A DNA stretch of 31,624 bases from the NCBI GenBank assembly GCA_000934665.2, contig KZ538027.1:124001-155624 (forward strand). The letters run 5' to 3'. The translations under genes were made by a program, and so were the position numbers. Numbering within the stretch: position 1 is the stretch's first letter; each line of letters starts with the position of its first letter. The notes under the pieces were generated by a model. The model had not been told where the DNA came from. It did no database searches and saw only the letters and a list, made by a program, of their open reading frames with translations. This document shows positions 6,344 through 29,650 of the stretch, piece after piece. Source of the DNA: Catajapyx aquilonaris. Taxonomy: Eukaryota.

Positions 6344-9300
6344 TCAAAACCGACGCCGAATCCAATCCTTGTCCTGGTAGTAGCGGGGGTTGGCGATGTA
6401 CAATCCGGCCCGCTTGTAGAAATAGTAGTGCAGGACTGAAACTGATTGTGCGATCAGTACCATTGCGTTTAACCACATGTAATTGAACGTACCTGCTCGC
6501 TGCAGTATGTACAGCACGTAGACGCCGTATGACCAGGTGTACTCCTTCAAGTGGCCCCACATCATGGACAGGTTGCACGCATGGTACGCAATCGACAGCC
6601 CAAGGTACACCACGACAAAGGACAACGAGTACCTGAACTCCCTGATCAATACTCCAACCAAACCAACCTGTTGGTAGAAATTACATTCATTTATGTCAAT
6701 TATGTACAGTACGTATATTGCACAAATTATTATGTACAGTATAATATATGTTGCAGTATAATTAATATGTATAAATTATGTACAGTAGAATTTGCAGAAA
6801 TTATTACGTTCCGTGTAATTAATGCGCACAAATTATTTTGTACGGTGTAATTAATTTGCAAAAATTATTTTACACAGTGTACTGTAATTGAATTACATCT
6901 TAGTTCTTTCATAGAGTGTAATTAATTTGCAAAAATGATTTTACACAGTATACTGTAATTGAATTGTATGAATTACATCTTAGTTCTTTCATAGAGTGTA
7001 ATTAATTTGCATAAATTATGTACAGTACATTCCACAAAATATTTTGTGCAGTATAATGAATTTGCCTAATTTATTTCGCACAGTCTAATTTACAATTTTG
7101 CATCAATTACTTCCCACAGTATAATTATTACGTAACAGTATAATTTGGACAAATAATTTACTGTAGTATGATTAATTTGCACCAAATTCATATCAGTGTA
7201 ATTAATTTGCATAAATTATTTTTCACAGTATACTGTAATTGAACTGTATACATTATTTCTTAAGTTATTTCATATAATCTAATTACTTTGCATAAATTAA
7301 TTCGTGTAATATTATTAATCTTCATGAATAATTATTTCGTGTAGTACCAGTATGATTAATCTTCATGAATTATTTTCGGTAGTATGATTAATTTGTGCGA
7401 ATTATTTTGTGCAGTATAATAATTACAATGCAGTTCGCAATAATTTAATAATAATATATTGTTCACACAGAAGAGGACTTTTAAAAAAATTCGAATCAAT
7501 TAGCTTCGAGGTGTGCCGGTAGATGGCAGGCCTGTCGACATTCTCTAATATGCCCGATAGATGGCGGGCCAATCGGCTTTCGCCCCCACAAATTAAGAGT
7601 CGAAACCAGTGCAGCTTCCCTCCCCCGCCTCTCGCTGGAGAACCAGATGGACTGGCCCGACCGCCAGGCCACGCAACGCTCGATATCGATAACGCCTCCT
7701 CTCGACCTCGCACACAACTCGTGAGCAGGGAGGCAGCCGCGACAGAAGAAGGAATTCCGCGTTCATCTGACAGCGATTATCGCAAATTTATCGCAATTTC
7801 ATCGTGGATATGGACAACATGGGGTCACCAGGGTTCGGTAAGCACAGCTACAGTACTATAGTACATAGCATTGAACGATCTATGATAGTACACACACGAG
7901 TACTATCAGTTCATAGACCATTGCAAGTGGCGTTGCCTATAGTTCGCATTGTGGCCAACAGGTGGCAGGGGTGGCGCCATCAAATCAGGCGGGAAGTTTG
8001 AACTAGTGTTATTAATTCCCTCAATTTTTTGAACAGATTGGTCTGCGAGGCATCACCAACAGCAGCAGCAGCAGGAGTCACCGTCGCAGTCGGTTATACC
8101 ACATTTTGACAAGCTGATTGTGCCGCCCAGTATGCGCTCTATCTACTGGAAGTACTTTGGGTTCCCGGGGTCGTCCGAGGGTCAGATCATCACCAGGATG
8201 AAGATAGTGTGCACCATTTGCCAGCAGCTGATTGTGTACAACCGGAATACTAGTAACCTACGTGTGCACCTCCAAACGCACCATCCGCATGAGCTGCGGG
8301 ACCTCGAGGTCAGCTCCTCCCTGGCTCTGGGGTCCAGGGTCAGTAATAGCATTACGGGTGCAGAGGGAAGGGTCAGTAACAGCATTCAATCCCAGGGTGC
8401 GGAGGGGAGAGGCGCCGGATTCCCAAATCTGCTGGCAGTCCCGCAACCGGCTATGGTCACAGTCAAGGAGGAATTTAGGTCGGTATCAGTATCCGATATT
8501 AACCGGAAGTTCAGTCACTACACGAATCTTGTTTTTAGGTTGTCTGAAGATTCAGGCAGTGGACATATTGGATCGAGGCTCTCGGAGGATTCCGGAAGTG
8601 GCCACGTTGGATCCAGCTGGATGGAATCTGAAGGTGACGACCTCACGATGCAGGTGTCGGACTTCCTGTTGCAGGATCTACTTCCGCTGGACATTGTGGA
8701 TGGACCGGGGTTCCGCCGTCTCCTAGGCAGCTTGTCACCATCTGGCCATATCCCAACAGCCGCCAGACTTGAAGAGGGCGTGTTGCCCCATGCGTACGCC
8801 ACACTCCACTCCGACGTACAAGAATACGTGCGGGAAACACCACACGTCTCATTATGCTTGGAGACCTGGGAGTCGTTAATGCTTCACACTCACATTACAG
8901 CATCTGTAACCTGTGTAGGAAATGAGGCTAAAGTACTGCGTACAATTCGGTGCCACAATTGGAAAGCATCAAATTTCCGCCGGTTTGTGTAATGACAGAT
9001 TCGGTATCGTAATGAAATCCTAATGCTGCTTGTTCATTCCCAGATTTATAGTGGAGGTGATGGAAGAGTGGGGCATCAAGAGCAAGATAATCGTTGTTGC
9101 CTCGTCCGAACCGCTGTTGAGGCATGCGATACAAGTGCTGGACATGACCGCAGTTCCATGCTTAGTTCACTCCATACAGAAAGCTGTGGAAGAGCTTTTC
9201 TTCATCCCAGAAGTGGCCACCACGTTACGAGTGGCTCGTTCCATCCAATTTTCTGAAGTCGATTACCCGCCTATGTGGACCACAACGTACGCGATACTCG

Positions 9301-11050
9301 AGAGATGCAAAGGACACGACAACATCGCTCAGGGATTCCTCAAGGACATCCTGGACGTGCTGTGTCCACTGACGGTCGCCATGGCCACGCTCTCCAACAC
9401 GCCCATGTCCATAATTAAACCTTTGCTGTCTCAGCTGGAGCGTGTGCACATGCGTCAGGCTGAAGGAGACTCCCCTCTGTCCAAGCGATTGAAGGCGACT
9501 GTCCTGTCATGCCTCACTAGAGATTACGACAGTGAGCAATTACAGGTGCGCTTCTGATTTCTCCAAATATTGCAGCATGTTTTACTGAGAAAGTTGTTTA
9601 CAGGTTGCCCTCCAGACGGCCTCATTTTTGGATCCTCGCTTCCGGGCAGCGTCCGAGTCCAATCCAGATGCTCGTCAGCTTATCCTCTCACGGCTAAAGA
9701 CAGTGATGGACGAATCTGGTCCGCAACTGAAGCGTGCAAAGGCTAGTGCTTCCAGTTCCCCCAGTAGTGAGGACAAAAAATGTGGTGCTTCTTCGTCAAC
9801 TGCTACTGGAATGGCCTTTTTACTTGGCGACCTTGTGGGAAGCAGTTCTGAGGCCTCGGTGCAGAAGAAAGTGGAGGTTGAACTTGCACAGTACACGATA
9901 GAAGAAGGGCCGTCGCTTGAGTCATGTCCGCTGCAGTGGTGGGAGAAGACTAAGGGGAAGTGTCCATATCTGGCCTCCATGGCCACTGAGTTCTTGTGTG
10001 TTCCAGCTGCCGTCCTGTCTGGGGTAGCGACCGATGAGGCCATCATGTTTCATAGAAGGAGAGCCGCGCTTCCAGTGATTCCAGAGAGAGACAGCACGGA
10101 TCGGATTCTCTTCCTTCACTGGAACTCAAAGCGGACGGTTCCGACGTGATATCCAAACAGGCTTCTGCCTTTCCGTTAGTGCGTGTCCGCATGTGTACTG
10201 ATCATACATTCAGTATTAGTGACTAATGGATATTTTTAGCATACTGTGAAGCGGATCTCAAGTGCATGTGTATACAAGTGTACAGGGTGAGTCAGAACTG
10301 CAGGTGCAATGTGCATGCAGCCTAATATTTTTGGCAGGTTTAACACAGTGTATGATAACAGTGCGGCTGTGGACCTCGCATTAAATTATGTAATTTTATG
10401 TCAGACTCATTTGTATATAAAAAAACATGTCCTTATTTCTATTGTGGGTTGAAAATGATGTAGAGCAAGTGCGTACTTCAAATAAGACTGTTACTTGTGA
10501 TAGCATGGTACTCGCAAAATCTTCACATTGTCGTCTGAATGTACGATACGTTTCTACAATCCTGCTCCGCAATCACACCAAGTCATTACCAGGCTCCGAC
10601 ATTAGGGGGAAAGTGCATGTAATTACAAGTAGCACATATCTATCTTTTTACACAATAAATATTTGTACATGTCAATGACACAGTTTGTATAAAATGCAAT
10701 AAGTAATCAATTTGTTCTCAGGTATGCAATGGAGATTGATATAATAGTAATGCTGCCTACCTGAAACACATATGTGGAGAAGAACGCCAGGAAGAGAACG
10801 ATGAACGAGAAGATTATGCAAACGTCTTGAACACTGCCGGAGAAAATTAGTATCGATCGATTGACCTTTTTTTTTTGCATTATACTCAATGTAAATGGTG
10901 TAACGATGCAAGTACTTACATATAAAGGCACAGGAGTATGACCGGCTCATTGCGTATGAAGTCACTGGAGGCGTTAATGAGCAGATCTAAGGTGACGAAC
11001 AAGTACTGAGACCACAGAATCCATTGGTAACGAGCAACACTTAACATCAT
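6344..11050 (-). CDS. TMEM138: Transmembrane protein 138 (ciliary), 4 exons: 11050-10920, 10833-10761, 6667-6493, 6441-6344
   Basis: Spliced MMLSVARYQWILWSQYLFVTLDLLINASSDFIRNEPVILLCLYI/VQDVCIIFSFIVLFLAFFSTYVFQ/VGLVGVLIREFRYSL...LYILQRA/VSVLHYYFYKRAGLYIANPRYYQDKDWIRRRF* matches TMEM138 motifs as I recall them (QD....FxTxVFQxGLV, YFYKR, PxxYQDxxW). All junctions are GT-AG and in phase. Confidence 0.92.
6680..7460. repeat. AT-rich degenerate minisatellite, unit about 29-30 bp, in TMEM138 intron 2
   Basis: Recurring AAATTATTT..CACAGTATAATTAATTTGC variants; exact 41 bp duplication AATTACATCTTAGTTCTTTCATAGAGTGTAATTAATTTGCA at 6891 and 6971. Confidence 0.85.
7810..10149 (+). CDS. BED zinc finger / hAT transposase-derived (ZBED-like) protein, nested antisense in TMEM138 intron; exons 7810-7837, 8037-8982 (probable 60 nt in-frame intron 8479-8538), 9044-9545, 9604-10149
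   Basis: N-terminal BED finger (SIYWKYF...CTIC...NTSNLRVHLQTHH), DLLPLDIVDGPGFRRLL motif, CxxH motif (CLVH), ASFLDPRF and C-terminal hAT dimerisation region (PLQWWEK...PYLASMATEFLCVPA). Canonical in-phase splice sites join the three ORF-track fragments. No TIRs seen. Confidence 0.88.
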
Positions 11051-11083
11051 TTTTTTTTGTGAAAAAAAATCCCGCCTCAGAAA

Positions 11084-11115
11084 GTCACGTGATTGTTACG
11101 TCACTGATGACGTCA
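11084..11115. promoter_or_regulatory. TMEM138 proximal motifs: E-box GTCACGTGA and CRE palindrome TGACGTCA
   Basis: GTCACGTGA at 11084-11092 and TGACGTCA at 11108-11115, 34-65 bp upstream of the TMEM138 ATG. Function is inferred only. Confidence 0.45.
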
Positions 11116-11960
11116 CTGTCTGCCAAATATTCGAACACGTATAATCGACACCTGAGAAAAACCTGCTTGATTTTCGAGGCTGTCACCCAAAAGTGATCGT
11201 GATCTTCTGCAACGGCGATGGCTGGTTGGACTCACGAATCACTAATCACGAACACCAGCAGCGCACGAAAATCAACAGACGTGTATAACAACAACCGAAC
11301 AGAGAACATGTTCGCCATACTTGTTTACTCTTAATAATTAACGAGGCAAATACCTGCAAATTTCACGAATTATTGTGAAATTACCCACATTAAATGCGAA
11401 TATTCAAATAATTACGTTAAAAAATGGTAACATTGTTGTGTATATATATTTTTGTGCAGTGAATAGGCGAGGGTTGGAAATAATACCTGGCAGGTGCTGG
11501 GGGGGCTAATATCGATTTGCAATTAAGCTTTTGAACCTCTTTGCATCAGAACCACGTCATCCACCAGGTGTTTCATGCATTGATTTTACCTTCCCCCCCA
11601 TCTTTTCATGGTGTACTCATTACAATAATAATTAAGTACATTATATTATGACATGTTGCACAAAGATCAGGTATAATTGTTTCTAGAGCACGTGAGTAAA
11701 AATGTGTCACGATTTGTCAGATATGATTTCATCTTTTTAAAAATGTTTGTTTATTATAATTAATTTATATATTTTGTTTTTCATTTACTGTATTTAAAAC
11801 ACATGTCACATTCTTTTGTGTTAGGTAAGTACAACAGGTTTTTTCTTCCCTGCTGAGATGAATATGAGGAAGCTCTTCTGTAAAAACCTGTTTTCCTGAA
11901 CGTGATTTTCTAGCAAGGTGGCGCATATTTTTTTCAGGTTCAAGTACTACACGTACACAG

Positions 11961-11968
11961 TATAAAAA
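11961..11968 (+). promoter_or_regulatory. TATA box of the small secreted peptide gene
   Basis: TATAAAAA at 11961, initiator-like CCATTTC about 33 bp downstream, ATG in ACCATG context at 12054. Confidence 0.7.
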
Positions 11969-12053
11969 GAGATGGTAACAACCTGCTTCGTGGCCATTTC
12001 CACTTCAGACTCTCAACAGAAAAGACGAGCCACACATATACAATAATACGACC

Positions 12054-12334
12054 ATGAACTTCCAGACACTGGTAAGCTCCACCCACTAATTGTTTGGTGC
12101 AGCATTTAAAGTGCAATGTGATGTACTATTTTGGCGTGTAATTTGCAATGCTTTTTTATGTACTCGTACCAGTTGTGCCTGTTGGTGTTTCTGATGACAG
12201 TGCTGCTAACAATGGTGGAAGGAGGCATTGTTGTGAAGCATCCGAGCCATTTCAAGCGAAACTCTGGAGTTCACAAGAAGCTCAAGTTGATCACCACCAT
12301 TACTCATCCTGTCAAGAAGCGATTCAGACATTAA
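12054..12334 (+). CDS. 59-aa secreted cationic peptide precursor (antimicrobial-peptide-like), exons 12054-12071 and 12173-12334
   Basis: MNFQTL|gtaagc...accag|LCLLVFLMTVLLTMVEG-GIVVKHPSHFKRNSGVHKKLKLITTITHPVKKRFRH*: hydrophobic signal peptide ending V-E-G, phase-0 GT-AG intron, upstream TATA box. Confidence 0.8.
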
Positions 12335-13749
12335 TAATGTTGAACACTGCTGCTGTAATAATGAAGATGTGACAATAATAGAAATACAAAGTATGTGAAT
12401 CCAGAGTGATTTATTACTTCACATTAGTACAACATGAACCAAACAGCTTTTCCAAACAAAGAGTCTTGAATTTTTATCCCCGCCATTTTACTGGAGGACG
12501 GAACATTTATTACATTTTTTTAAAATTATTATTTAGATGTAATTAAAAAGAAGGGTTTAGAAATTGTCACGTGAGAGATGAATTTGACCAATGTTTGTTT
12601 GTTTTTGTGCAGAAAAAGGGAGGGTAGAATCACGTTTGGTGTCCTTTATTATTAATAATTATCGATCATTTGATTGATATTTAATAAATATCGAAGGCAT
12701 CGTATTTCAGTCTTGATAGAATCCGATCTACTTATAATCGCTATCAGGACTGCAACTATAATTATTATTTGGTCAGAGTTGGGAAAATACGTTAGTTTAT
12801 TATTTTGCTTTCAAGTTATCGTATTCAAGAGGTGAAAAATAACCATTTGTTTAATTAATAATTACCCTGCTCATATAGAGTGAAGTTATGTTTACTCTGT
12901 ATGCGGCAAAAAATAATGTTAAAAGTTGGCAAAGTTTTTAAAGTAAATTTTTTTTTGCCACACACTTTGCAAATCACATTTTGTCTGGAAGAGGTTTTGG
13001 TCTGCTCATTTTTTCAAGTGAAGTAGGCCATCTTATCACACGAGAGAAGAAAAAAAAATGTTTGACGTCTCACACTTTTTGTTTTACAGAGTTTACGGAG
13101 GGTTTTTCACAATTAAGCTCGAGTATTGTTTGCGTCTACTTCAATAAATAGTTAGTTAACAAGCGTGTTTTTTTTTGGAGGGGCTTTGTTTGTACAGTAA
13201 TTTTTTTTCTATGCTACAAATTGGCGAACAAATACCGGTAAACACGTACCACTTTTTTGGCATACAGTTTACACCACGGACGCAAGGTTAATTAAAAAGG
13301 TGGGTAATTGCGTTATGAAGCAGTGACATTTAAGGGCCATTCACATAAGCCATGATTGTCTTTGATTAGATCACAAAATGGGCCAGCTTTTTCATGAGAG
13401 ATAAGCAAGGATGCCAACTTGTGTTAAAGTTTAACCTATGTTTAAAGTTTGGGTCTTTGAATAGCCCAATTTGACCCAAACTCTATGTGTTACTATAGCC
13501 CAGTGTGAATGACCCTACTGGAAAAACACGTGGTCAACAAAACATGAAAAAAGGTTGAGCTCTGATTTGGCACACAGCCTCTCTGACATGTATTGGCTGA
13601 GGGAAAAAGTCATGAAGCTTTTTGTTTTATATGTACCCGGTATAGTAGTTGTGAGGTGGGTTGTAGCCAGGAAGGATGGGAATGTGTATAGGAAGCACAT
13701 GGATGAAAAAAACATGGCAGGTTAGTTTTTTTTAATAGGTTAAAATAGT

Positions 13750-16700
13750 TTAAGAGAGTGGGTCTTTTCCCACGCCTTTGCTCTTGAGGAATTCCCTGGC
13801 CTGAAGGAGGATGTCGAGATGGTCTGAAGTCGCCTTCTTCAGCCAAGCTTTTGCCTTGTTGACCACCAGCTCCCAGTCTTCCTTACGTGAGTCCAATCCC
13901 AACTCGATGAAGTTGATAGCCAGAGATGTAATCCAAATGGGGCCGTCAATTTCTCTGGTTCTTCCCTCTGAGAATCGTACGAATAATTTATTATTAAAGA
14001 ACGGACCACACAGTCAGGAAAGGATGATCCATAGGTGAAAAAGTGCTGTACCATCCTCCACTTCGGTCCATTCCACCCCCATTGCATCTGCCAACTTGGA
14101 ATCGGCAGTGAAGCACCCGTCGAACTTCTGCAGTCCGACGATGACCTGCAGGACATCCTCCTCAATCTGTGTGTCCAACAGATGCCCTCCGAGCTTTGGA
14201 CTGCCACCGTCCACCTGGATGGACTTCTTCCGCATCATCTTTCCGACCTTGTGAAGAGAGGCTTGTATTCCGGAGCATGTTGCGGTGAAGAAGGTGGCCG
14301 GAAGTGACTTTCTCCTCATGGGACTTCCTCTGATGTTTCCTTCCATGCATTTCTCCACCGAAGTCATGTGAATGGATGGTCTCGACGACTCCAGAGCTCC
14401 GAGTCCATCCGTTTCAGAGTTGATGTCCGCTCCTTGCCAACCATGCGGAAACTGGCTTGGAACCATCCTGCTCTGGAGTGCCCAGCTTTTCTCTACAGGA
14501 TCGTTCTTCTCTGGGTCGACAGCCAAGAACGACGTGTGTCGAGATATCAAGCCTGTCAAAAAAAAAAAAACCATGAAGAGGATCCTATAACTAATTAATA
14601 AGGAAACCAAAAGGATAATCACCATATTTGCATCCCAGCCGGATCATCTCATTCTTGATTCCCTCGAGCCTGTCATCACCGTCAGGCAAACACGAAGCCA
14701 GATCATCCAGTTCTTGTAGCAGCTTGCGTGCAGACAGTCTGTGGACATGCAATGTAGATTGCAGTAATTAGTCCAGGGGTAATCACAAATTCAGATTGTG
14801 CACTCTTCATCATCCTGCACGTATGTTAAGACAAAACCGCCAGCACTTTAACAAAAATTTCTTCTCGTAAATTATTGCTGATGGCTGCCACACAGGCGAT
14901 CCATGGACAGTTTCTGAAGCACTACAGTTTGATACAGATGATTTAACGAGCGCAACAGAGTGCGCACCACAGTTTGCGCAGGTTGCACGGTTGGAATTAT
15001 CAATGATAGTTGGTATGCACTTACTTGTGGATGAGATCTCCTTGGAAAATATCATTTTCTGAGACTGTGACCTTTGCCTCTACTGGTCCGTCAGGGGTCA
15101 TGGCAGTGACACATGCGCCTGTTGGACAAGTTCCGTCTGTCCAGGTCGAGTAGACCAACAGTCTGGATCCGTCAAACACTGGGGGGATCTGCAATTAGGC
15201 ACAATTAGAGTTGGGGATTATGGTGTAATTATAACGAGCTTGTATACCTTGAGAGGAGCTTGGACTGGCTGGCTGGATATGCATTTTTCCATTTCCTTGA
15301 TTGTTTCGGGTGTGGTCAGATCCATTGATTTACCGCCGGATATCCATTTCACAGTGATGTCTATAAAGAGAGCGAAAGTAATTAACGTGTAATTAAGGTG
15401 TAAACTAATTAGTATCTAGGCTATACCTTTCATGGCTGGATGCAAGGCGTTTTTGAGCTGTCTCTGGACTTTGGACTCCAGCCTCTCTTTGTACGTGGCA
15501 AATTCGGCCATTCCTCCGCCAGCTCTGGCTACTCCCTCGACCAGATAATGAGACGCACTGTCTCCAATTCCCAAAGCAAACACACGTGCTTTGGACGAGT
15601 TCAGGTGAACTAATCGTATGACCTCTTCAGTATTGCTCACCTGCACAGAAATTTGAAATAATTATTTTGTCTGTCATAATTATCTCGAATTATTTGAGCC
15701 GTACCTCTCCATCTGTGAGAAGCAACAGTTGTCTCAAATAATCCTTCGGAGGATCGGTTGCAAATATGGCCTTCAATGGTGCTAATATTTCAGTACCACC
15801 AAGGTCTGAATCCACGTCTGAAACAATTCGACTCATACACTATATAAGCAATATTATTTTGATTGTGTTTTCTAACCTTTGACATGGTCCATTGCCTTTT
15901 TGAGCGTTTCTTCTCCGTACTTGACACTCTTTGGAAACAGAAATTGAAAGCTGCTGCCGAATCCTACAATATTGAAGTGACAATCCAACGGCAAAGAGTG
16001 AAGAAACAGCTGAAAAAATTGTTAACAATTTAGCAAAAGATAAACAGCTAAGGAGAAAAAAAACCAAGCTGGGAGCAATCAGTTTGCGAAATGTTTGCTA
16101 AATATTTTTGCTCTGAATATGTCGAATAAGGTAATTTATTTTGATATACACAAGAATTTGCCAGATGTTTTCTCTCATGTTTCGCTGACGTTTTTCGACC
16201 ATTTTTTTTTTCATAATCCACACACATAACGGTTATCCAAAAATTCGAAAACTCATATAAACCAGCTTATCTGGAGGAAATCCTTGGCCAGGAAAATCCT
16301 TCCAATTTCATTTTTTTTTTCTTTTTCTCGAAGAAGCGCCCAGCTTGATTTTCGTCACCCTTTTCACTACTCGATGGTAAATCCTTACATTCAGAGCTTT
16401 CTTGGCCTGCTGGATGCTAAGCCCGGACATAGAACCGGATCGATCCAACACAAAGATGAGCTCTACTTTATCGGCACGTAAGTCGAAGCTGGGCACCATG
16501 GAAACCATGGCGGCTGCACTTCCTTCTTTGCTACGCTGCAAATGGGGCAAGTGCAGTAATCAACATAATACACACTTCACATCATACTGTACATTCTCTC
16601 TTTTTTATGTTGTTGCAAGTATACGCTAATGGCATTGGTTAATTTGATGGAGAGAGAGCTTTGAGTAGAGTTAGTTGGAAATCGATTCTCAGCTTGAAAA

Positions 16701-17931
16701 GCATGCGAAAGCACGATCAAAGGCATGGCCTGCATGGCTCCTCTCCTACATAGCAAAATAGAGAGATCAAATAAAGTGATATACTCACCTCGACACAAAG
16801 CCTGGGCTTTCTAGGTTCTGCCAAAGACACCAGGAGGACGAAATCTCGGTCCATATCGCTGGTTTCGCTCGAAAGGGTCACTCTTCCTACGTAGATGCCT
16901 CCAGGCTGGAAACATTATCGACAATTTTAATTATTTCTGAATACACGAAAACTTGGCAACACTGCCCGGACCGAGTCACTACCAGATGGAACACTACTGT
17001 CGCTCTAAGGGGGAAAAGCACTATATGCACGTTGGTGATGAGTCACCCGAGACTTGGCAACGCTGCCCGGACAGCTCCACTTGGACGTAGTACGATATGC
17101 CACTACCATATGTAAGATAACATACCTTTCTTTCCTTTTCCACATTGGCTGAGATGGAATGCGTGGGCCATTCAAGCTTGAGGATCTCTGACTTCATCTC
17201 GCACTCCAGCTTGATGGATATGGGTGCGGGTGACGATCTTAAATAACATGAAAGGCTAAATAAAAACATAAGTGTGCATAATCGAGCTGTGTATGTTGTG
17301 TGTTTATATGTGGTCGCAATTTGAGGGACTTACAACGAGTGAGGGATGGCACCCGTTTCAATAGGCTCCTTCTTGTCCGGCTCGTATCTCGGAGCGATCG
17401 TGGTCGGCAAATAGAATCGGACAGAATCGCCTTCCATGGACAGTTCGGTCAGATATTTAATCTGGACAACCACTTGAGAAGCTGGAACCAGGTTGCCCAC
17501 TTTCATCTGTAAAATAAGTGTATGCAATTTGTCCAATTAACCTGCGTGTAGAGTCGTACCTTGAATGAATCCGGATTGTTTTCCTCCAACATGGCAACAG
17601 CCTGCCGATTGTCCAGCGCTTCCTGGTATTGTTGCCTGGCTTCCTCCTTGTCTCTGACCACCCCAACAATGGTCTTGTGTCCATCCAGTTTGACCTCGAA
17701 GCTGACCACACATGCTGATTGGTCCAATGGGAAGATGTATATGGCCTCGATGGGGTCAGTCTCCTCATTTATATACGTCTGCTCTAAGGTCACCTCTCCG
17801 ACCACGTCCAATATTCGGGCTTGAACTTTGACCCCTTTGAGAGGCACAGGCTCGTAGCTTCCAGGGTCCTTTTCGACAACCAAGCCGCAAACGCAGCTCA
17901 GGTAACGACCCAATTTGTTCACAAACGGCAT
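13750..17931 (-). CDS. VWA5A: von Willebrand factor A domain-containing protein 5A-like (VIT + vWA), paralog 1, multi-exon
   Basis: VIT domain (VPLKGVKVQARILDVVGEVTLEQTYINEETDPIEAIYIFPLD), LPTTIAPRY, MDRDFVLL, MIDAS motif LIFVLDRSGSM, DLGGTEI, LLTDGEVSNT, RVFALGIG, LISRHTSFLAVD and C-terminal DWELVVNKAKAWL, stop at 13752-13750. Start ATG at 17931 is tentative; a non-coding exon with a donor near 19485 is possible. Confidence 0.88.
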
Positions 17932-20829
17932 TATCAAAAAGCTGGAATTATTAATCAAAAAATGCAATTTAAAATAATTTCATATAGCCTGTTATTGATA
18001 CTCGATTAACAATGAAGCGACACCCCTCTTTGAAGCCAGTGGTAAATTAATAAACTCAATTTTTTTCATCGGATTTTCTGCAACTCCCTGATCATCAACA
18101 GCAGGTTAACCAACTAATCATTAGGATCGTGGACAGGGTTTAGTTGCGGTTTGAAACATCCCATGCTCCCTAAAGTGATCTAAACATCATATTAGCATGC
18201 AGATTAGCCCCCGCCAAAAAAAAAAACAACAGGGAAGCGAACTACTGAAGCAAAAAATCAGCCATAGTTTGTCTCCAAAAATATTATGCAGAGCTTTTTA
18301 TCATTTTTTAAAAAGAAAAAAGTTCAACCTCCCCACCTCCCACCCACTGTAAGCGCAGCGTAATTAGATGACCCGGATCGAAACTGTGCAAAAGTCTATC
18401 GGGTTGGCGTGCGCTAGTCCTTCACAGGTGCATGCATAATTCATGATTGATTTATCGCTCCACGCATCGAAGACAGGTCTTAAATAACACATTTTTTTTT
18501 ATATCACTCTTTCCCCCAGCAACAACCTGTTGTGCATTACTGCTAAATAACAGCTTAATTAGATATTTTTAAAATGGAATTTATAGATGCAACCTTGTTA
18601 TAATTAGTAACGAAAACTTCGAGGCTGTTTAAATGATTTTGTAATCGCTTTAATTAGTGAAAGTGAGTTTTTGTGTCTAAATGAGTTAGAGCTTTAATAA
18701 TTTTTATGCAATAATCAGAAACAACGCAAAAAGCTACTTCTGATGAGTATTAGTTGAATGTTTTTTTGTCACTTAATAAGATAATATGTAAATTAATTTT
18801 TATGTTAATAATCTCGTCAAGTGTACGTGTCAGTGGTCATCACATCAAGAATGGAAAATACTATATACTTTCACATAAATATTACAAGTAATCAAATCAC
18901 AATATTCAACATGTTTATTATCTCATTGAGTTAAGTGTTAGTTCATCCAGTGGCCTGCATTAATTTATACCGATTAAAAATTAATTAAAGCAAGTTATAG
19001 TTACTAGGCCCCACACACTTTTTATTACATTTATTACATTTATTACTTTTCTAATTTTAGTCTTGTAATAATACAAGTGCAACAACCTGCGTCGAAGTTG
19101 AGAAACATTCGTTAATCTATTTTAGTCTCATATTTAATTTAAGCCTTCATTACTGATGTAACATTTTTTTTGAAACACACTGTAAGCTACAAAATACGCC
19201 ATAGAAAGCAATGAAACGCATCAACTATAGTGTAAGCCTCCGATTTTGTGAGAGGTATGCCCCGGATTGATTAAGTGTACGCCGGATTAGCAATTAACGC
19301 TGATTTTTAATCCGGATTTTTTTGGCCAGCTTTATGACGTTGCAAAATATTACAAAAAATCATTCGTCCGAAACATCACATCAATGCCTAGAAAAAAACG
19401 ATGCACTGGTATCTTAAACGTCGCAATAACAGCCCTAGGTCACTTACAACTTGAACTGTGCGACAAATCGACAGGACACTTACCCAGCGATGAGCAATCA
19501 GTTGGAGAGGACACTTGACGTCTTTAAAACTCCACTTCCACTCACTCCAGACAGTCTCTTTAAATTATTTTCTATACTATTTTTTTTCTTCAAAATTTAA
19601 AACCCGGTTTTCTATAGACTGGAAGCAGGTTCCAGGTGCTTTAGGTGAGTTCTATCTGTAGTCTGGTCAATACGCTGACAACAAGAGAAGGGGTTGCTGC
19701 CGGGGAGTCTGCGCATCTCAATTTCCCTCGACTACTACTACATATACTACCAAGCACTCTGCTCTGTTATATCTACTGGGTATATAAGCACTCTCAACAT
19801 CCTTGTAGAACCCTCTTCCAAAATGCTGTGGGTTGGATGGATGCGAGAGATGGAAAGAAAAGGAAGGAAGAAAAAAAAAAACCTTTATTGTGCCCAGAAG
19901 CTGCAGGATGCCTGAGAGCTACATTATGCAAATTTTGTTATAGTCGGGGACGGGAGATATATTCCTACAGCTTCTGCCTCTGCGGAACGGATGAACAGAA
20001 ACGCAATTATTTAAATCTCTGCTGTGCAGCCAAGTCACCATTATTACGACGACTTATTTATACCGCTCGGTGTATGAAGAGTCATGTCCACTATGCAGAA
20101 AAAGTGACACACACGTTCAAAAAAAAATTGCGTATTTAATTATGTAAATAATTTGAATTTTTTAAAATAATTTAACAGTACATTGTACGTTTTGACATAA
20201 TATTGAAATATTATTGGAAAATCAGGTCGTTGAAGCTATTTTTTTGCATCGCACTGCAGATGTGCCTCTGCTAATTTTTTTTCTATTGTGACACTGAAGT
20301 ATGTTAAATTTTTTCTGCTGTGATATGACCAAGGATATGAACACACTATATGAGGTATGATACGGTTGTAGTGGGCGTTAGTAAGTTGCCCTCAAGCTCT
20401 GATTACAGTACAAAAAAAAGCCCCACTGAGGCTATAGTTTGAAAAAAAAACTCCCCGTGGCGATCGTTAATCTCTTGCTAATAATAAAACTGCAGAAACT
20501 AGAGAGAGAGGTGAAGTTCTTAGGAAGCTGGAAAAGCAACCCCCCCCCCCCCCCCCCCCCCNACTGCTACCTCTTCAGCTTATTGATTCGCTGTTGCGTA
20601 CAGACCATTTTAGACACTATACCTGCTTTGCGGTTTTTTTTTCATTTTTTTTTATTCCAGCTTTTTTTTTCTTCTGAGCAGCCAATTGGCCGCAGAAACT
20701 TCGTGTTCAATTGAATCTCAGAACGTGCCTGAGAGAATTTTTAGGGCTGCCACGTTCGTAGAATTGGGTCTATTGGGCGAGCTATAGGTGCAATGGATGC
20801 ATAGAGAAGCACAATTATTGCACTTGGGT

Positions 20830-21245: not shown

Positions 21246-22206
21246 AATAATTAATCGTCTGTATACATTTTTTGCAAAAAAAAATATTTCAAGGTTGTAC
21301 CTAGTATTTTGTAGACCCTGAAAAGGTAAAAATCTATGATCCTTTCCCCTTTACCCGCGGCGTCAAGAGTATTGATTGGCGCCCCGCAAATAGGTCCAAA
21401 AAAACCTGTCGATTTGGCCTCTTCCCCACATTTCAATTTGACATGTCAAAACCGCTTAATCTGCTAGGTCATCTCAGCACAAAAAAATAGTACAGGCCAA
21501 CATATAGGTCATACCCACACCTTTTTGGCATTTTTTTTTCGCGAGCTCTAAAATGGGCTAAATCAGGTCTCCCCCGCCCTTCTCTACTCCCCTGAACGCG
21601 CTAATTAAATTCGGACCGGTATTAAAAGGCGAACCCTTAATGAAGTTAGCTTGGTGAAATTCCGTCTGATGGTTAGGGCCTTCATTAGAGAGCCATGAAT
21701 TTTAGAGGAAAAAAAAAGGGGGGGACCATAGTCGATGGGGGAGGAAAATGTGTAGTACCACATCCATCACATACATGGCGCGCATATGGCTCGCCTCCTA
21801 TTTTTTTTTCCGACTCTTCAAACACATTTTGACTCATCAGCCCCGGGAACTTGTCGAAATCGATCAAAAAGCGTCTGAAGTGCGCCAGGAAATCAGATTT
21901 CCCGGGGACAATAATTTGTGCGCGCAAAAAAAATGTTTCGTAGCGTATTTCCAACACTAGATTTCGGACATCGAATCGGGGAAAATCCAAGATGGCGGCG
22001 CCCATGAATTTTGCCGCAGTGCGAGTTTGAGTTGGAAAAAAAAAAAAGAAGCTTCTGTTTTTTTATTAATTAACTGTTGGGCATTTTCTTAGTGTAAATT
22101 AATTAATTAAGAGCTCCAGATTACAGCAGCGGATACAGGGTACAGGGTAAGTACACGTACATGTAAAATTTGGCATTTGCAAATTAGTTTTGTGTTTGCA
22201 GAAAAA

Positions 22207-23656
<1,450 letters not shown>

Positions 23657-24006
23657 GGGCTGGAAGTTATTATTATTTTTGATTATTTAGGGCTTCCAGG
23701 CGCCTCTAATTTATTGCAACGAAGGAGTTGTGGTTGAATCTCTTTTTCCCTTTCCACATCCCCTCTCGTAACCTATCACCAGTCTGCATTCAAATCATGT
23801 TTCACGGCTTTTTAGGCTGGTATTGACCAATAAATATTGTTGTGGTTAAATACTTGCACCATTTTCCTGCCATTTGCTTACAGTCCGAACTACGTGTCGT
23901 ACATTCAATATTAACGGAACATGCTGCATTTGGATTAGTGCCTTTATTTCTTTGATTGGTGTTCCTTCCTTAGTAATTATCCGCAGTTCAATTGGTTTAG
24001 AAATGT

Positions 24007-27000
24007 TCATTTTTTGGCAACTCTATCTTTCAGGAAGGCCTCGGCTTGGTTCAGAATTGAGTCTGAATTGGGCGTAGATTTTGACAGCCACTTCTTGCTT
24101 TTCGCAGCGGCCAGTTCCCAGGTTTCTTTCCGAGACGACAGGACTGTCTCCATGTACTTGATTGCCACGGCTGTCACCCACGTGCTTAGGTCAATTCCAG
24201 TTTTATTTCCAGCTGAAACAGGCAGCAGAATATTATTATACCAGTTATGGCGTTAAAACTAATGATAATTACCGTCTGTAATTTCTTGCCAGCTTATTCC
24301 TACGACCTGAGCAAACTGGGGATCAACACAGAAGCTTCCGTCAAAATTGATGAGTGACATTAGTTGCTCCAGTTTTCCAGGAAGTTGAGGTTGTTGCTGT
24401 ACTTGTCTTGGCCCAATTGTGATGCATTCGGATGCCAAAGGTGGGCTTTCTAAACTATCGACAGTGACGTAACTTGCATTTGCAGGAACATTTTTTTTGA
24501 GAAGGATATGCTTTTTACTTGCTGATCTGGAAAATGACTGGCCAAGGCTGTACGACCGCAGATTGTTAACTCCATGCCAACCATACGGAATCTGATTAGC
24601 CACCTGACAAGTCTGAAGTGGCCAGACTGAATGATCTGATTCGTGTTTTCTAGGATCTACGGCCACGAACGATGTGAGAGACGACACCAGACCGTATTTA
24701 ACGCCCAGCTTAACTACCTCTTCCTTCACTTTTTCCGTAGTAGGTTCTGGGACGACAAAATGCAACCAGCTAGACCCTTCCTCCAAATCACGGATCAATT
24801 TGCGGGCTGCCAATCTGTAATTGCATATCTTTATTGACTTGTTGCCTCAATAGGAAATGGTAGAATGCAGACCTGTGCACTATGTTGCCTTGTAGAATGT
24901 CATCCTGGCCGACATTGACAGTTGCGGCTAGTTCTCCGTCTGGTGACATGGCCTTGATCGTTACACCAGTGGGGACGCTGCCATCTTCCCAAATGCAGTA
25001 GACCAAAATTCGTGTTTCATTAAACACAGGTGGAACCTACAATCATAGTTGATTTTATCATTATTAATTTTGTGTTCTAATATAGTCGATTGTAGGCCAA
25101 TAACATGTGGTCTCGTTATACAAATCTCAGATTCTTGTAAGTTGAGGTAATAATGAGATGACGTACATGATACGGAGCCTGACGAGGTCCCTTGAAAGCG
25201 TCTCCTGCAGTGTGTTCTTGTTCAGCTGGCTTGCGGTACCCGAGAAGTGTCTTCTCACTTACAATTTCAGTCTTTGGTTGCATTTCTTCCCCAGGAATTC
25301 CCTCCCAGCTTATGGTCACCTCTAGAAATATGTAAAAACGTCCTTAACTGTATTCCGTCCATCGATAGAGTTCAGCTAACTTACCTGACAAGGCAGGGAA
25401 GAGTCCGTTCTTGAGCTGCCTCTGCACCTTTGGCTCCAGTGCCTCCTTGTATGTTGCGTACTCTGCTGTTCCTCCTCCAGCACGAGCTATCCCTCCAACC
25501 AGGTGGTGAGAGACACTCTCACCAATTCCTAGCGAGAACACTTGAGTGCTCTGGGAGTGATCTTTCACTAGCTTGATCACCGCTTTTGTGTTGCTGACCT
25601 GTTGTGCACGGATGAAAATAGATGCCATGCTAGTATAACATCAACATTTAATATCCACCTCGCCGTCCGTGAGAACAAATAGTTTTCGATGGTAGCCCTT
25701 GATTGGTTTCTGCTTAAAAATTGCTTCTAGTGGTTGATATATTTCAGTACCACCCATATCAGCATCAAGAGCTGAAAGAGTAAATATTGTGAGCAACGAA
25801 CCTGTTACGCATAAAAATAATAATGTGTGACTTGGAGGATTTCGTAACGTTTGATTTGAAAGCCTCGGACTTACCACGTGCGTGAGCCAGAGCTTCTCCA
25901 AGTGAATCATTGTCATACTTTCTGCTCTTACGAAACAAAAATTTGTGAAAGTTTCCAAACCCAACAATGTTGAAGTAACAATCCATAGGCAAAGATAGTA
26001 GAAACATCTGCAGTAATAAGGCCATTGTTACTGTATAATTTGCAGTTAATATGCGTTTAATACGACACTGAATTTCAGCTTACAGTAAGAGCCGCTTTGG
26101 CCTGTCGAATACGCTGTCCCATCATAGATCCTGATCTGTCCAGCAGGAAAATTAATTCTGCCGGCTGCTCATCCAGGTTGAAACTAGGAACGAGGCTCAC
26201 AAAGGCAGCCACACTTTTCTCAGATTTCTGTTAAATAAGTCATTAGCATGTGATGATTGTTAGTTAGGACCACTCATTAGCGGTACTTACTTCAATGCAG
26301 ACCCGCGGTAGGTGCGGATTTTCAGTCGTCACCAGAAGGACAAAATCTCTGTCCATATCGGTGGTATGCCCTGCCAACGTTGCATTTCCCAAGAAATAGT
26401 GTCGTCCACTATTGTCAATATGTGTCGTGACTGTATGTGTTGGTGACTCAATGCTAATAATCTTGGACTTCATTTCGCATTCAACAGAAATCATCATAGG
26501 AGCAGGTGATGACCTAAGTGGTTTTTTAAAAAAGAAGATAGCCTCACGGATGTTGTTTGTAATTTTTTGAGTCTTTCTTTCAGTGCAGTATGCGAGTGGA
26601 CACTTACATGGAGTACGGTATTTCTGCAATTTCCTTTGCCTCCTGGCTGGAATCCGACTCTGGAATGTACCGAGGGGCAATGGTGGTCGGAAGGAAAAAC
26701 CGAAGCGCTTGTCCTTCAACAGACACCTCCGTCAAGTAGGTTAACTTGATCTTTGCCTCACTTCCAGGTGACAAGTTACCCACCTTTACCTGTGCAATTA
26801 CTGCTGATTAATAACACATTAATCCGATGTACCATGAGCCGCTACCTTAAAGATGTCAGGCTTGTTCTCCTGGGCCAAGAAAGCTGTTTGCCTATGTTGG
26901 ATGGCCTGCTGGTACTGTTTCTCAGCCATTTCATTTTCCATGACCATACCATGAATGGTCCTTCCGTCCAGCTCAGCTTCAAACTGGACCACACTGGCCG

Positions 27001-27335
27001 CTTCATCTAAAGGGAACATGTAGACGGCCTCGATCGGACCATCCTCTTCATTTTTGTAGGTCTGCTCCAGCGTGACTTGAGTGGCAAAATCAACTAGACG
27101 AGCCTTCACGGACACTTCCTTCAACGGAAGAGGCACAGTTCTCTCTTTCTCCATAAATATTAACCCATATAAATCGATGCATGTGGTGATTAGGGTAGGG
27201 CCTGGATCTGGCATGGTAATGGGACGGCCTGAAGTTAAATCAGGAAATTAATTAAATATAATATGTTGGTAATAAATTAATGAAAATTACAAATGGCTTA
27301 CTTTTTGACTTAACAATGTTGCGCAACCAATCCAT
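24007..27335 (-). CDS. VWA5A: VWA5A-like (VIT + vWA), paralog 2, multi-exon
   Basis: Exon 1 MDWLRNIVKSK (27335-27302) splices in frame to ...LPLKEVSVKARLVDFATQVTLEQTYKNEEDGPIEAVYMFPLDE; LPTTIAPRY, MDRDFVLL, LIFLLDRSGSM, FNIVGFG, DMGGTEI, VLTDGEVSNT, KYGLVSSLTSFVAVD, TWELAAAKSKKWL, TGA at 24009-24007. Confidence 0.88.
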
Positions 27336-28468: not shown

Positions 28469-29337
28469 CTAGCTATAGTACAGAAGGCGGGCCAAGCAGA
28501 TGACTAGGGGCAGGGGCACGGGGACGACGACGGAAGGTAGGGCATGGGCAGGTGCTCCGTTGTGGGGATGACGGTCCACACCAGGTCGTGCACCGCCGCC
28601 GGAGGAACGACCATCGCCACCGGAGGAACCATCGCCGCCGGAGGACGAACCACCACGCGGAGGATCCGGGGCATAACCGCCGTTGCACTGCTGTTGATCG
28701 CAAGCGCATACCTTCGTTGGCAGAGGCGTGGCAGGCATGGTAGCAGGAACCACATCGCAATCCTTCAACAAGTTGTACATCGTCCGTGACGCATACATGC
28801 AGGTGAAGACAGAGACGCCTGGAGAGAAAGCATGGGGAAACCAGGTCACTTATAATTTGAAAAGGATCTTCACGTGACCCCAATGTTTCGAACAACTGTT
28901 CGTCTTCATTGGGGTGCACTAGCAGAGAGTGACACACCAATAATACATAGTTCGCCAAACATAATTGGCACTGCTTACTTGTGTTGGCCGTGGAGACGCA
29001 GTACCAATTACAATCCACCATCATACCAGTACCGCTGGAACAGGTTCTATGTTCGACTAAGTAGTTTTTCCCGGGCATTTCCTTTATCTCGGTGCAATTC
29101 TTTATATCCCCATTTGTGCCCTTACAACGATCACCAGCATCTGTCCGCGGGCACACCTGAAAATAGCACATGCGACCGGTGGCTGCCGACAATAGCCATC
29201 GTTGTTGAGTGTTATCAAAAAGCACGGAACCTGCACAGTGTGCATAATAATTATTGTGGCTCACCAGGCGTGGCCATCATGGCGAGGACGAGGAAGATGA
29301 CGAGGCTGCTGCCTCCATCAAACCAGGGGGAAGCCAT
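28469..29337 (-). CDS. GPI-anchored cysteine-rich Ly6/three-finger-like protein; exons 29337-29265, 29182-28979, 28818-28469
   Basis: Signal peptide MASPWFDGGSSLVIFLVLAMMATPATG, then RMCYFQVC... with 12 Cys ending in VCACDQQQCNG (Ly6-type CxCxxxxCN), Gly/Ser linker and hydrophobic C-terminal tail (HNG-APAHALPSVVVPVPLPLVICLARLLYYS*). Two phase-1 GT-AG introns. Confidence 0.8.
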
Positions 29338-29650
29338 CCTGGACCCTGCTCTTTTGGAGTAGATTGATACTGATAACAACCGGCTTGTCGGCAAAACTGA
29401 ATGGAACTGAGCAGAATGCCATAATAATCAACATCAACAAACCAGGGGGCAAAGGGCAAGGCAAAGGGTCAATCGCATGGGAATGGGACGAAAGGGACCC
29501 CTGAAAATGTCAGCGTATTCCTTGGGCCAAAACAAGTCGAAAATGTAGGGGGGGGGGGGGGNGGGGGGGGGGAAATGTCGAGACGTGGTTTAGCAGTGAT
29601 GTAATAACCATTCACCCTTAATTAGTATCGTCAATCTGAGCAACAAGTCC

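What the first reader, a model, noticed from the sequence alone, without database searches (positions are those of the whole stretch)
11961..12334. Unrecognised two-exon gene for a secreted, highly cationic His/Lys/Arg-rich peptide (candidate new antimicrobial peptide family)
Seen: TATA box, ACCATG start, an 18 nt first exon with a GTAAGC donor, and a second exon completing a 23-aa signal peptide followed by the 36-aa GIVVKHPSHFKRNSGVHKKLKLITTITHPVKKRFRH (7 K, 3 R, 5 H, no D/E, no Cys; net +10 before His). Known: many invertebrate linear AMPs have a signal peptide, a short cationic mature part often starting with Gly, and a TATA promoter. Inference: an AMP, possibly pH- or metal-responsive through His. 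The KR and KKR sites also allow a prohormone-type reading. I do not recognise the family, and a gene this small is easily missed by annotation.
Basis: partly seen in the sequence, partly recalled or inferred. Interest (0 to 1): 0.8.

Follow-up and report, generated by a model that had tools for sequence, protein, structure and literature searches.

The report
Spliced orphan cationic peptide gene
A tiny two-exon gene in a soil-dwelling forcepstail (a wingless relative of insects) is really spliced and encodes a secreted, very basic 36-residue peptide with no known relatives; it looks most like an antimicrobial peptide, but that job is untested.

Summary
The gene is real. One contig of public run X1 skips exactly that intron and covers the whole coding sequence. 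Mitochondrial COX2 places the animal among japygid Diplura (92% to Japyx). The product is a 23-residue signal peptide plus a 36-residue mature part: net +10, five His, no Asp, Glu or Cys. That composition is far from chance. I found no relative in this genome, the protein collections, Pfam, PDB or metagenomes, and this scan has not noted it on other DNA. It is therefore one orphan gene, not yet a family. A linear cationic host-defence peptide is the best reading (about 0.5). Against a classic pore-former: only 31% hydrophobic residues, amphipathicity no higher than shuffles, one kB-like site only. It fails the cecropin and moricin tests, and the prohormone marks I could test (amidation, repeated peptides) are missing. 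Function is inferred, not shown. Interest 0.4.

The parts
11961..11967 (+). TATA box
   Evidence: Sequence; 93 nt before the ATG. A defensin gene of this genome has the same box 90 nt before its ATG. Use as promoter is inferred; contigs cannot show a start site.
11998..12071 (+). Exon 1 as covered by the spliced contig: 5' UTR plus 18 coding nt (12054-12071, residues 1-6)
   Evidence: record 3
12072..12172 (+). 101-nt phase-0 GT-AG intron
   Evidence: Skipped by one contig of run X1; sequence
12173..12223 (+). Exon 2, rest of the signal peptide (residues 7-23); hydrophobic core with 7-residue hydropathy up to 3.5; likely cut after Gly23
   Evidence: only the cuts after residues 19 and 23 of 11 tested fit the -3/-1 rule. 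Cleavage is inferred.
12224..12331 (+). Mature peptide, 36 aa, about 4.2 kDa, computed charge +9.7 at pH 7.4 and +13.8 at pH 5.5, 31% hydrophobic, Cys-free
12239..12250 (+). HxxH pair (His6, His9 of the mature peptide), possible metal site
   Evidence: Motif scan; metal binding untested
12254..12259 (+). KR dibasic site (mature 11-12), possible convertase cut, no preceding Gly
12263..12304 (+). Predicted short helix, mature 14-27, holding an XBBXBX-type basic cluster
   Evidence: Single-sequence AlphaFold2 model, mean pLDDT 68.8, pTM 0.30: low confidence. Motif.
12314..12331 (+). Basic C-terminal tail: KKR followed by three residues ending in His; no amidation Gly
12332..12337 (+). Tandem TAA stop codons
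12338..12388 (+). 3' UTR; contig reaches 12366; variant poly(A) signal AATACA at 12383-12388
   Evidence: use of the signal is inferred
11377..11386 (-). The only kB-like site in 800 nt upstream of the TATA box (574 nt away)
   Evidence: consensus written from recalled knowledge; the defensin upstream region also has just one (palindromic) site, at about -730
11825..11937 (+). Possible upstream 5' UTR intron (perfect donor, strong acceptor), not supported by RNA here; a transcript using it would carry a 24-codon upstream ORF at 11972-12046
   Evidence: 1 of 7 perfect donors in the contig has such an acceptor 50-160 nt downstream

Best explanation
A lineage-restricted, linear cationic host-defence (antimicrobial) peptide gene of a japygid dipluran. 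Shown: the gene is spliced and the open frame is intact. Inferred: the 23-residue signal peptide is cut after Gly23 and a 36-residue peptide is secreted without a pro-piece or amidation. Inferred: its ten Lys/Arg bind anionic microbial surfaces (LPS, teichoic acids, anionic lipids), and five His add about four charges at acid pH and may bind Cu or Zn. Inferred: the middle third folds into a short helix on membranes while the Pro-broken ends stay extended. Because hydrophobicity and amphipathicity are modest, it more likely acts by coating surfaces or crossing them to reach polyanions than by forming cecropin-like pores.
For: Exact splice junction and whole coding sequence in one contig. Clear signal peptide. 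Net +10 with 5 His is met by 0 of 3399 other stop-free 36-mers of the contig and 0 of 20000 base shuffles; GC3 matches neighbouring genes. Size (59 aa) and TATA-to-ATG spacing match a defensin of the same genome. Taxon-restricted AMP families and poor homology detection are the rule in insects (PMC4874388, passages). Binding to anionic LPS or teichoic acids is described there as essential for cationic AMPs. Basal hexapods are suspected to hold AMPs unrelated to described ones (PMC10051947, Collembola, passage). His protonation raises activity at low pH in several AMPs, one of which acts in extended form (PMC5198042, passages).
Against: No activity, induction or tissue data. Maximum helical hydrophobic moment is matched by 886, 784 and 594 of 2000 shuffles for 11-, 14- and 18-residue windows; only 11 of 36 residues are hydrophobic. 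Single copy with no tandem paralogue in 155.6 kb, and the flanking genes are not AMP genes (NDUFB2, TMEM138, a BED-finger/hAT gene, two VIT-domain genes, PRMT6). Only one distant kB-like site. No match to any AMP model in Pfam. The gene layout is shared with an unrelated secreted precursor. His residues are not sufficient for pH-dependent action.
Confidence: 0.5

Rival explanations
1. A fast-evolving exocrine peptide with a non-immune main job: reproductive (accessory gland, spermatophore, egg coat) or salivary/prey-handling secretion. It could still be antimicrobial on the side.
For: Secreted, tiny, single-copy, no homologues. TATA promoter without a kB cluster suits a gland-specific gene. 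Japygids are predators (10.64898/2026.07.16.716246, passage). That such gland peptides are often orphan and basic is recalled knowledge.
Against: No tissue data and no similarity to any described peptide of this kind. The search for japygid gland secretions gave 0 papers, so there is nothing to compare with.
Confidence: 0.2
2. A prohormone or neuropeptide-like precursor cut at KR and KKR into a 10-mer, an 18-mer and a tripeptide that act on receptors.
For: Signal peptide plus dibasic sites at mature 11-12, 18-19 and 31-33.
Against: No Gly before any basic site or the stop, no RxKR/RxRR, no acidic spacer; the likeness of the two halves is matched by 1707 of 5000 shuffles. Basic pairs are expected in a sequence that is 28% K/R. 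Neuropeptides of wingless hexapods mostly stay within the insect range of variation (PMC4770511, abstract and part 1 of 5), yet no homologue was found.
Confidence: 0.12
3. A small cuticle or matrix peptide whose His and Lys side chains are cross-linked by quinones or bind metal during hardening, for example of forceps or mandibles.
For: 12 of 36 residues are His or Lys. A short first exon within the signal peptide is common in hexapod cuticle genes and His/Lys are the usual cross-linking residues (both recalled).
Against: No chitin-binding or other cuticle-family match. No Ala/Pro/Gly/Tyr repeats, no Tyr at all. Single copy.
Confidence: 0.1
4. A young, de novo transcribed frame with little or no selected function.
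For: No homologue anywhere searched, so purifying selection could not be tested. Signal-peptide gene models arise by chance at about 1.4 per 155 kb in my crude scan.
Against: Exact splicing, gene-like GC3, good start context, double stop, and a composition outside both null sets.
Confidence: 0.08

Closest known systems
His-rich linear AMPs with pH-dependent action (clavanins, gaduscidins, chensinin-1, histatins; PMC5198042, passages)
   Same: Short, secreted, cationic, several His, charge rising at acid pH (computed +9.7 to +13.8). Chensinin-1 is described as Arg/His-rich and acting in extended form.
   Different: No sequence similarity found. Already +10 without His, so pH gating would be modest. 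No His-His pair as in gaduscidins, no HExxH, only two Phe. From a hexapod; the review's terrestrial invertebrate list has no hexapod peptide.
Cecropins (Pfam PF00272)
   Same: Linear, Cys-free, about 35 residues, cationic, secreted.
   Different: No Trp, no long amphipathic N-terminal helix, no hydrophobic C-terminal helix, no amidation Gly (features from PMC4874388; tests). No Pfam match.
Moricins (Pfam PF06451)
   Different: No match to the model; 0 candidates in this genome. Reported only from Lepidoptera. Predicted helix is 14 residues and weakly amphipathic.
Insect-type defensin of the same genome (G000:C206, locus L024)
   Same: 59-aa precursor, TATA box about 90 nt before the ATG, two coding exons, no long pro-piece.
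   Different: The defensin has six Cys, a phase-1 intron near the end of the signal peptide, and a neighbouring defensin-like exon. No sequence relation.
Heparin-binding (XBBXBX) cryptic antimicrobial peptides (PMC12223310, listing and start of abstract only)
   Same: One XBBXBX-type cluster at mature 16-22.
   Different: Those are fragments of larger proteins; this is a dedicated small gene. The motif is easily met by chance in a K-rich peptide, and I ran no control for it.

Membership tests
Linear cationic AMP (functional class) | Secreted precursor with signal peptide | tested here: met
   Hydropathy and -3/-1 rule only
Linear cationic AMP (functional class) | Short, Cys-free, net positive mature peptide | tested here: met
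   36 aa, +10, no Cys; beyond chance
Linear cationic AMP (functional class) | Amphipathic arrangement | tested here: inconclusive
   Maximum moment 0.60, reached by 886 of 2000 shuffles; low-confidence helix 14-27
Linear cationic AMP (functional class) | Kills or inhibits microbes | not testable with these tools
   Needs synthetic peptide
Linear cationic AMP (functional class) | Induced by infection or made in barrier or immune tissue | not testable with these tools
   Only contigs of one run; one kB-like site
Cecropin | Match to PF00272 | tested here: not met
   0 Pfam families at E<=1 and E<=10; the genome's only match (E 5.5, under cut-off) is elsewhere
Cecropin | N-terminal Trp, hydrophobic C-terminal helix, C-terminal amidation | tested here: not met
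   No Trp, basic tail, no terminal Gly; features from PMC4874388
Moricin | Match to PF06451 | tested here: not met
His-rich pH-dependent AMPs (clavanin, gaduscidin, histatin types) | His-rich composition | tested here: met
   5 of 36 residues
His-rich pH-dependent AMPs (clavanin, gaduscidin, histatin types) | Sequence homology to a named family | tested here: not met
   Pfam, PDB and protein collections blank; dedicated AMP databases were not available
His-rich pH-dependent AMPs (clavanin, gaduscidin, histatin types) | Activity rises at low pH or with metal | not testable with these tools
   His alone is not sufficient
Neuropeptide prohormone | Basic cleavage sites | tested here: met
   KR, KK, KKR
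Neuropeptide prohormone | Amidation Gly, repeated peptides or a conserved ligand motif (typical, not universal) | tested here: not met
   Not compared residue by residue with the 39 precursor types of PMC4770511: the one supplement held as text lists contig ids
Cuticular protein families | Chitin-binding or other cuticle domain or repeat | tested here: not met
   composition

The most novel reading that the evidence does not exclude
The first Diplura-specific immune effector, built as a tiny polyprotein. Cuts at KR and KKR would release a 10-residue HxxH peptide, an 18-residue basic helix, and a free C-terminal tripeptide with His in third place. That is the Xaa-Xaa-His pattern of ATCUN-type Cu/Ni-binding sites (recalled definition). 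One 59-residue gene would then deliver a membrane-binding peptide together with metal-binding partners, tuned by pH. Nothing found here excludes this; nothing shows it.
Probability: 0.07. Interest if true: 0.75.

Novelty: new variant of a known kind. Interest (0 to 1): 0.4.

Why it matters
My searches found no paper that describes AMPs of Diplura: 10 papers hold both terms, and none of the 5 I opened reports one in the passages seen. The Campodea genome paper never uses the words antimicrobial, immun- or defensin. A confirmed peptide would be a first non-homologous immune effector from the sister lineage of insects and a cheap, synthesisable His/Lys-rich lead. It is also an example of a small spliced gene that homology-based surveys miss. 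Lineage-specific AMPs are expected, so a specialist would find it useful rather than surprising, unless the processing or metal chemistry proves unusual.

Tried and rejected
Relatives, all blank: DNA in own genome, 1 match, itself. Exon-2 protein, itself plus 1 match at E 1.17 with a stop inside, judged noise. Mature peptide, itself only. Exon-1 pattern with 3 mismatches, 2 hits against 2 controls; the second hit lacks the ATG. C-terminal pattern, 15 hits against 16 controls; the 14 others show no signal peptide in frame, though a tail on a separate exon was not excluded. tblastn on the whole contig, next best E 0.15. 5.8-billion collection, no candidate of 29-93 aa. 1.84-billion phmmer, 2 hits, both long acidic repeat proteins, rejected. 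PDB 0. ESM Atlas best 0.78, low recognition, lead only. Metagenomes 0 of 597 candidate stretches and 0 pattern matches. Rfam 0 in 10000-14000. One 8-residue motif in full-text papers, 0. These collections hold few diplurans (a conserved neighbour, PRMT6, had best hits at 45%), so blanks do not show absence from other japygids. Viral contigs were not searched. A 10-nt motif after the TATA box shared with the defensin promoter: 4 genome hits against 6 controls, the 2 others not gene-like; rejected. Internal duplication of the peptide halves: not significant. No run is on record as RNA, and the gap in contig cover at 10655-11997 is not used as evidence; contig depth cannot rank expression. No fold search was run because the model is low-confidence. 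bioRxiv supplements were closed, and the sequence files of PMC4770511 were not among the supplements held as text; both could bear on the 'not in print' claim.

Full report
Observation. TATAAAA lies at 11961-11967, the ATG at 12054 in ACCATG context, the 18-nt coding exon ends at 12071, a 101-nt GT-AG intron follows, and exon 2 runs from 12173 to two TAA codons at 12332-12337. The precursor has 59 residues. Hydropathy shows a clean hydrophobic core, and of 11 cut positions tested only those after residues 19 and 23 fit the -3/-1 rule; the cut after Gly23 gives the 36-residue peptide described. It has 7 Lys, 3 Arg, 5 His and no Asp, Glu or Cys; computed charge is +9.7 at pH 7.4 and +13.8 at pH 5.5. 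SignalP could not be run.

Is it a gene? One public run holds the stretch. Of its 4 contigs on 10200-13500, one of 268 nt covers 11998-12366 without other letters and skips exactly the predicted intron. The run type is not on record. A precise GT-AG skip, no second copy in the genome and 31.8 Mb of contigs against a 285.6-Mb genome make RNA the simplest reading. It is one contig from one study and may come from the genome's own sample; contigs show neither start site nor level. Supporting signs: GC3 of 0.63 against 0.60-0.61 in three neighbouring exons. My crude TATA + signal-peptide scan found one cationic model in the 155.6-kb contig, this one, against 1 in 20 shuffled contigs; signal-peptide models of any charge arose 28 times in those 20 shuffles, so the layout alone is not rare. 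Net +10 with five His was met by 0 of 3399 other stop-free 36-mers and 0 of 20000 base shuffles; the thresholds were set from the peptide itself.

Organism and surroundings. Mitochondrial COX2 from the same assembly is 92% identical to Japyx solifugus, 85% to Occasjapyx japonicus and 79% to Parajapyx; the best named non-dipluran hit is 76%. The animal is a japygid dipluran. The gene stands alone between a BED-finger/hAT-dimerisation gene on the + strand and a VIT-domain (VWA5A-like) gene on the - strand. NDUFB2, TMEM138, PRMT6 and a second VIT-domain gene are nearby. None is an AMP gene.

Relatives. None was found. In the genome, DNA, exon-2 protein, mature peptide, exon-1 pattern and C-terminal pattern searches returned only the locus itself or chance-level hits, and tblastn over the whole contig found no paralogue. 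The 5.8-billion collection gave no candidate. phmmer over 1.84 billion representatives gave 2 hits, both long acidic repeat proteins that I reject. Pfam, PDB, Rfam and metagenome scans were blank, and the ESM Atlas gave only leads under 0.8. These collections hold little from Diplura: the conserved neighbour PRMT6 had best hits at 45% identity. So 'orphan' means orphan in what could be searched, and other japygid genomes were out of reach. Earlier notes of this scan show no look-alike. They list other small orphan secreted-peptide genes in this genome (unchecked), a reminder that such genes are not rare here.

How it most likely works. Shown: splicing and an intact frame. Inferred: secretion of a 4.2-kDa peptide with no pro-piece and no amidation, which binds anionic microbial surfaces through ten Lys/Arg and gains about four charges in acid. 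Insect AMP reviews describe binding to LPS or teichoic acids as essential for cationic AMPs, and describe taxon-restricted families as common and homology as hard to detect (PMC4874388, passages). Work on Collembola found five known families and suspects further AMPs without described orthologues (PMC10051947, passages). Several His-rich AMPs gain activity at low pH, one in extended form, but His alone does not guarantee it (PMC5198042, passages). A single-sequence AlphaFold2 model puts a helix at residues 14-27 with low confidence (pLDDT 68.8). Results against a classic pore-former: 11 of 36 residues hydrophobic, and a maximum helical moment matched by 30-44% of shuffles. I therefore favour surface coating or translocation to polyanions. 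I give the AMP reading 0.5.

What does not discriminate. A defensin of the same genome has the same precursor length and TATA spacing, which fits. But the TATA + 18-nt phase-0 exon + signal peptide layout also occurs on an unrelated Gly/Lys-rich precursor: of 7 pattern hits (6 controls), 2 gave clear signal-peptide models, this gene and that one. A 10-nt promoter motif shared with the defensin is not enriched (4 hits, 6 controls). There is one kB-like site 574 nt upstream, and the defensin has no more, so this neither supports nor excludes immune induction.

Rivals. A gland secretion for reproduction or prey handling (0.2) fits the same anatomy, and I found no literature on japygid secretions to test it. 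A prohormone (0.12) has the dibasic sites but no amidation Gly, no furin-type site and no significant repeat (1707 of 5000 shuffles). Neuropeptides of wingless hexapods are mostly recognisable by homology (PMC4770511, abstract and part 1 of 5), though I could not compare sequences directly. A His/Lys cross-linking cuticle peptide (0.1) has no family match. A de novo frame (0.08) cannot be excluded without an orthologue.

Comparison and novelty. It works, if the best reading holds, like His-rich linear AMPs. It is not a cecropin (no Trp, no hydrophobic C-terminal helix, no amidation, no PF00272 match) or a moricin, and has no homology to clavanin, gaduscidin or histatin types in the libraries searched. 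AMP databases were not available, and in-silico AMP predictors vary by taxon in any case (PMC8429723, abstract). The search for Diplura and antimicrobial peptide gave 10 papers; I read passages of 4 of them and of the Campodea genome paper, and none reports a dipluran AMP. An 8-residue motif of the peptide is in no paper of the library. I rate it a new variant of a known kind: a real, apparently undescribed gene, but one sequence in one species with no functional evidence. Interest 0.4; 0.75 if the processed, metal-binding reading proved true (probability about 0.07).

Noticed in passing
G000:C142:96826 onward (locus L039, from 1501): Gene with the same layout (TATA, 18-nt phase-0 first exon, signal peptide) encoding an acidic pro-piece, an RVRR furin-type site and a Gly/Lys-rich mature part that runs into an assembly gap; candidate Gly-rich AMP or cuticle protein.
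   Followed up: partly
G000:C206 about 38900-40520 (loci L024, L029): Defensin pair: a complete 59-aa two-exon defensin without a long pro-piece, and a second, divergent six-Cys defensin-like exon about 1.4 kb upstream.
   Followed up: partly
window 11825-11937 and 11972-12046, + strand: Perfect donor directly preceded by an acceptor-like tract, and a strong acceptor 113 nt later; could be an alternative 5' UTR intron, whose transcript would carry a 24-codon upstream ORF. No RNA support seen.
   Followed up: partly
window 11085-11115: TCACGTGA (CLEAR/E-box-like) and TGACGTCA (CRE) 23 nt apart, about 860 nt upstream of the TATA box; 7 and 14 copies in the 155.6-kb contig. Motif names are recalled.
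   Followed up: no
window 8033-10149, + strand: BED-finger plus hAT-dimerisation gene, probably a domesticated hAT transposase (ZBED-like); contigs of run X1 reach into its 3' end up to the AATAAA at 10654.
   Followed up: no
window about 13700-18000 and 23850-27250, - strand: Two VIT-domain (VWA5A-like) paralogues in the same direction, flanking a PRMT6-like gene on the + strand at about 22100-23660. A contig of run X1 from 12465 onward may be the long 3' UTR of the nearer one.
   Followed up: no
window 28470-29360, - strand: Cys-rich frames followed by a Gly/Ser repeat and a hydrophobic end, suggesting a Ly6/uPAR-like GPI-anchored protein; no Pfam match on two single frames.
   Followed up: no
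G000:C5905 (loci L019, L022): Mitochondrial COX1/ND2 sequence with frame breaks in COX1, probably a nuclear copy or an assembly error.
   Followed up: no
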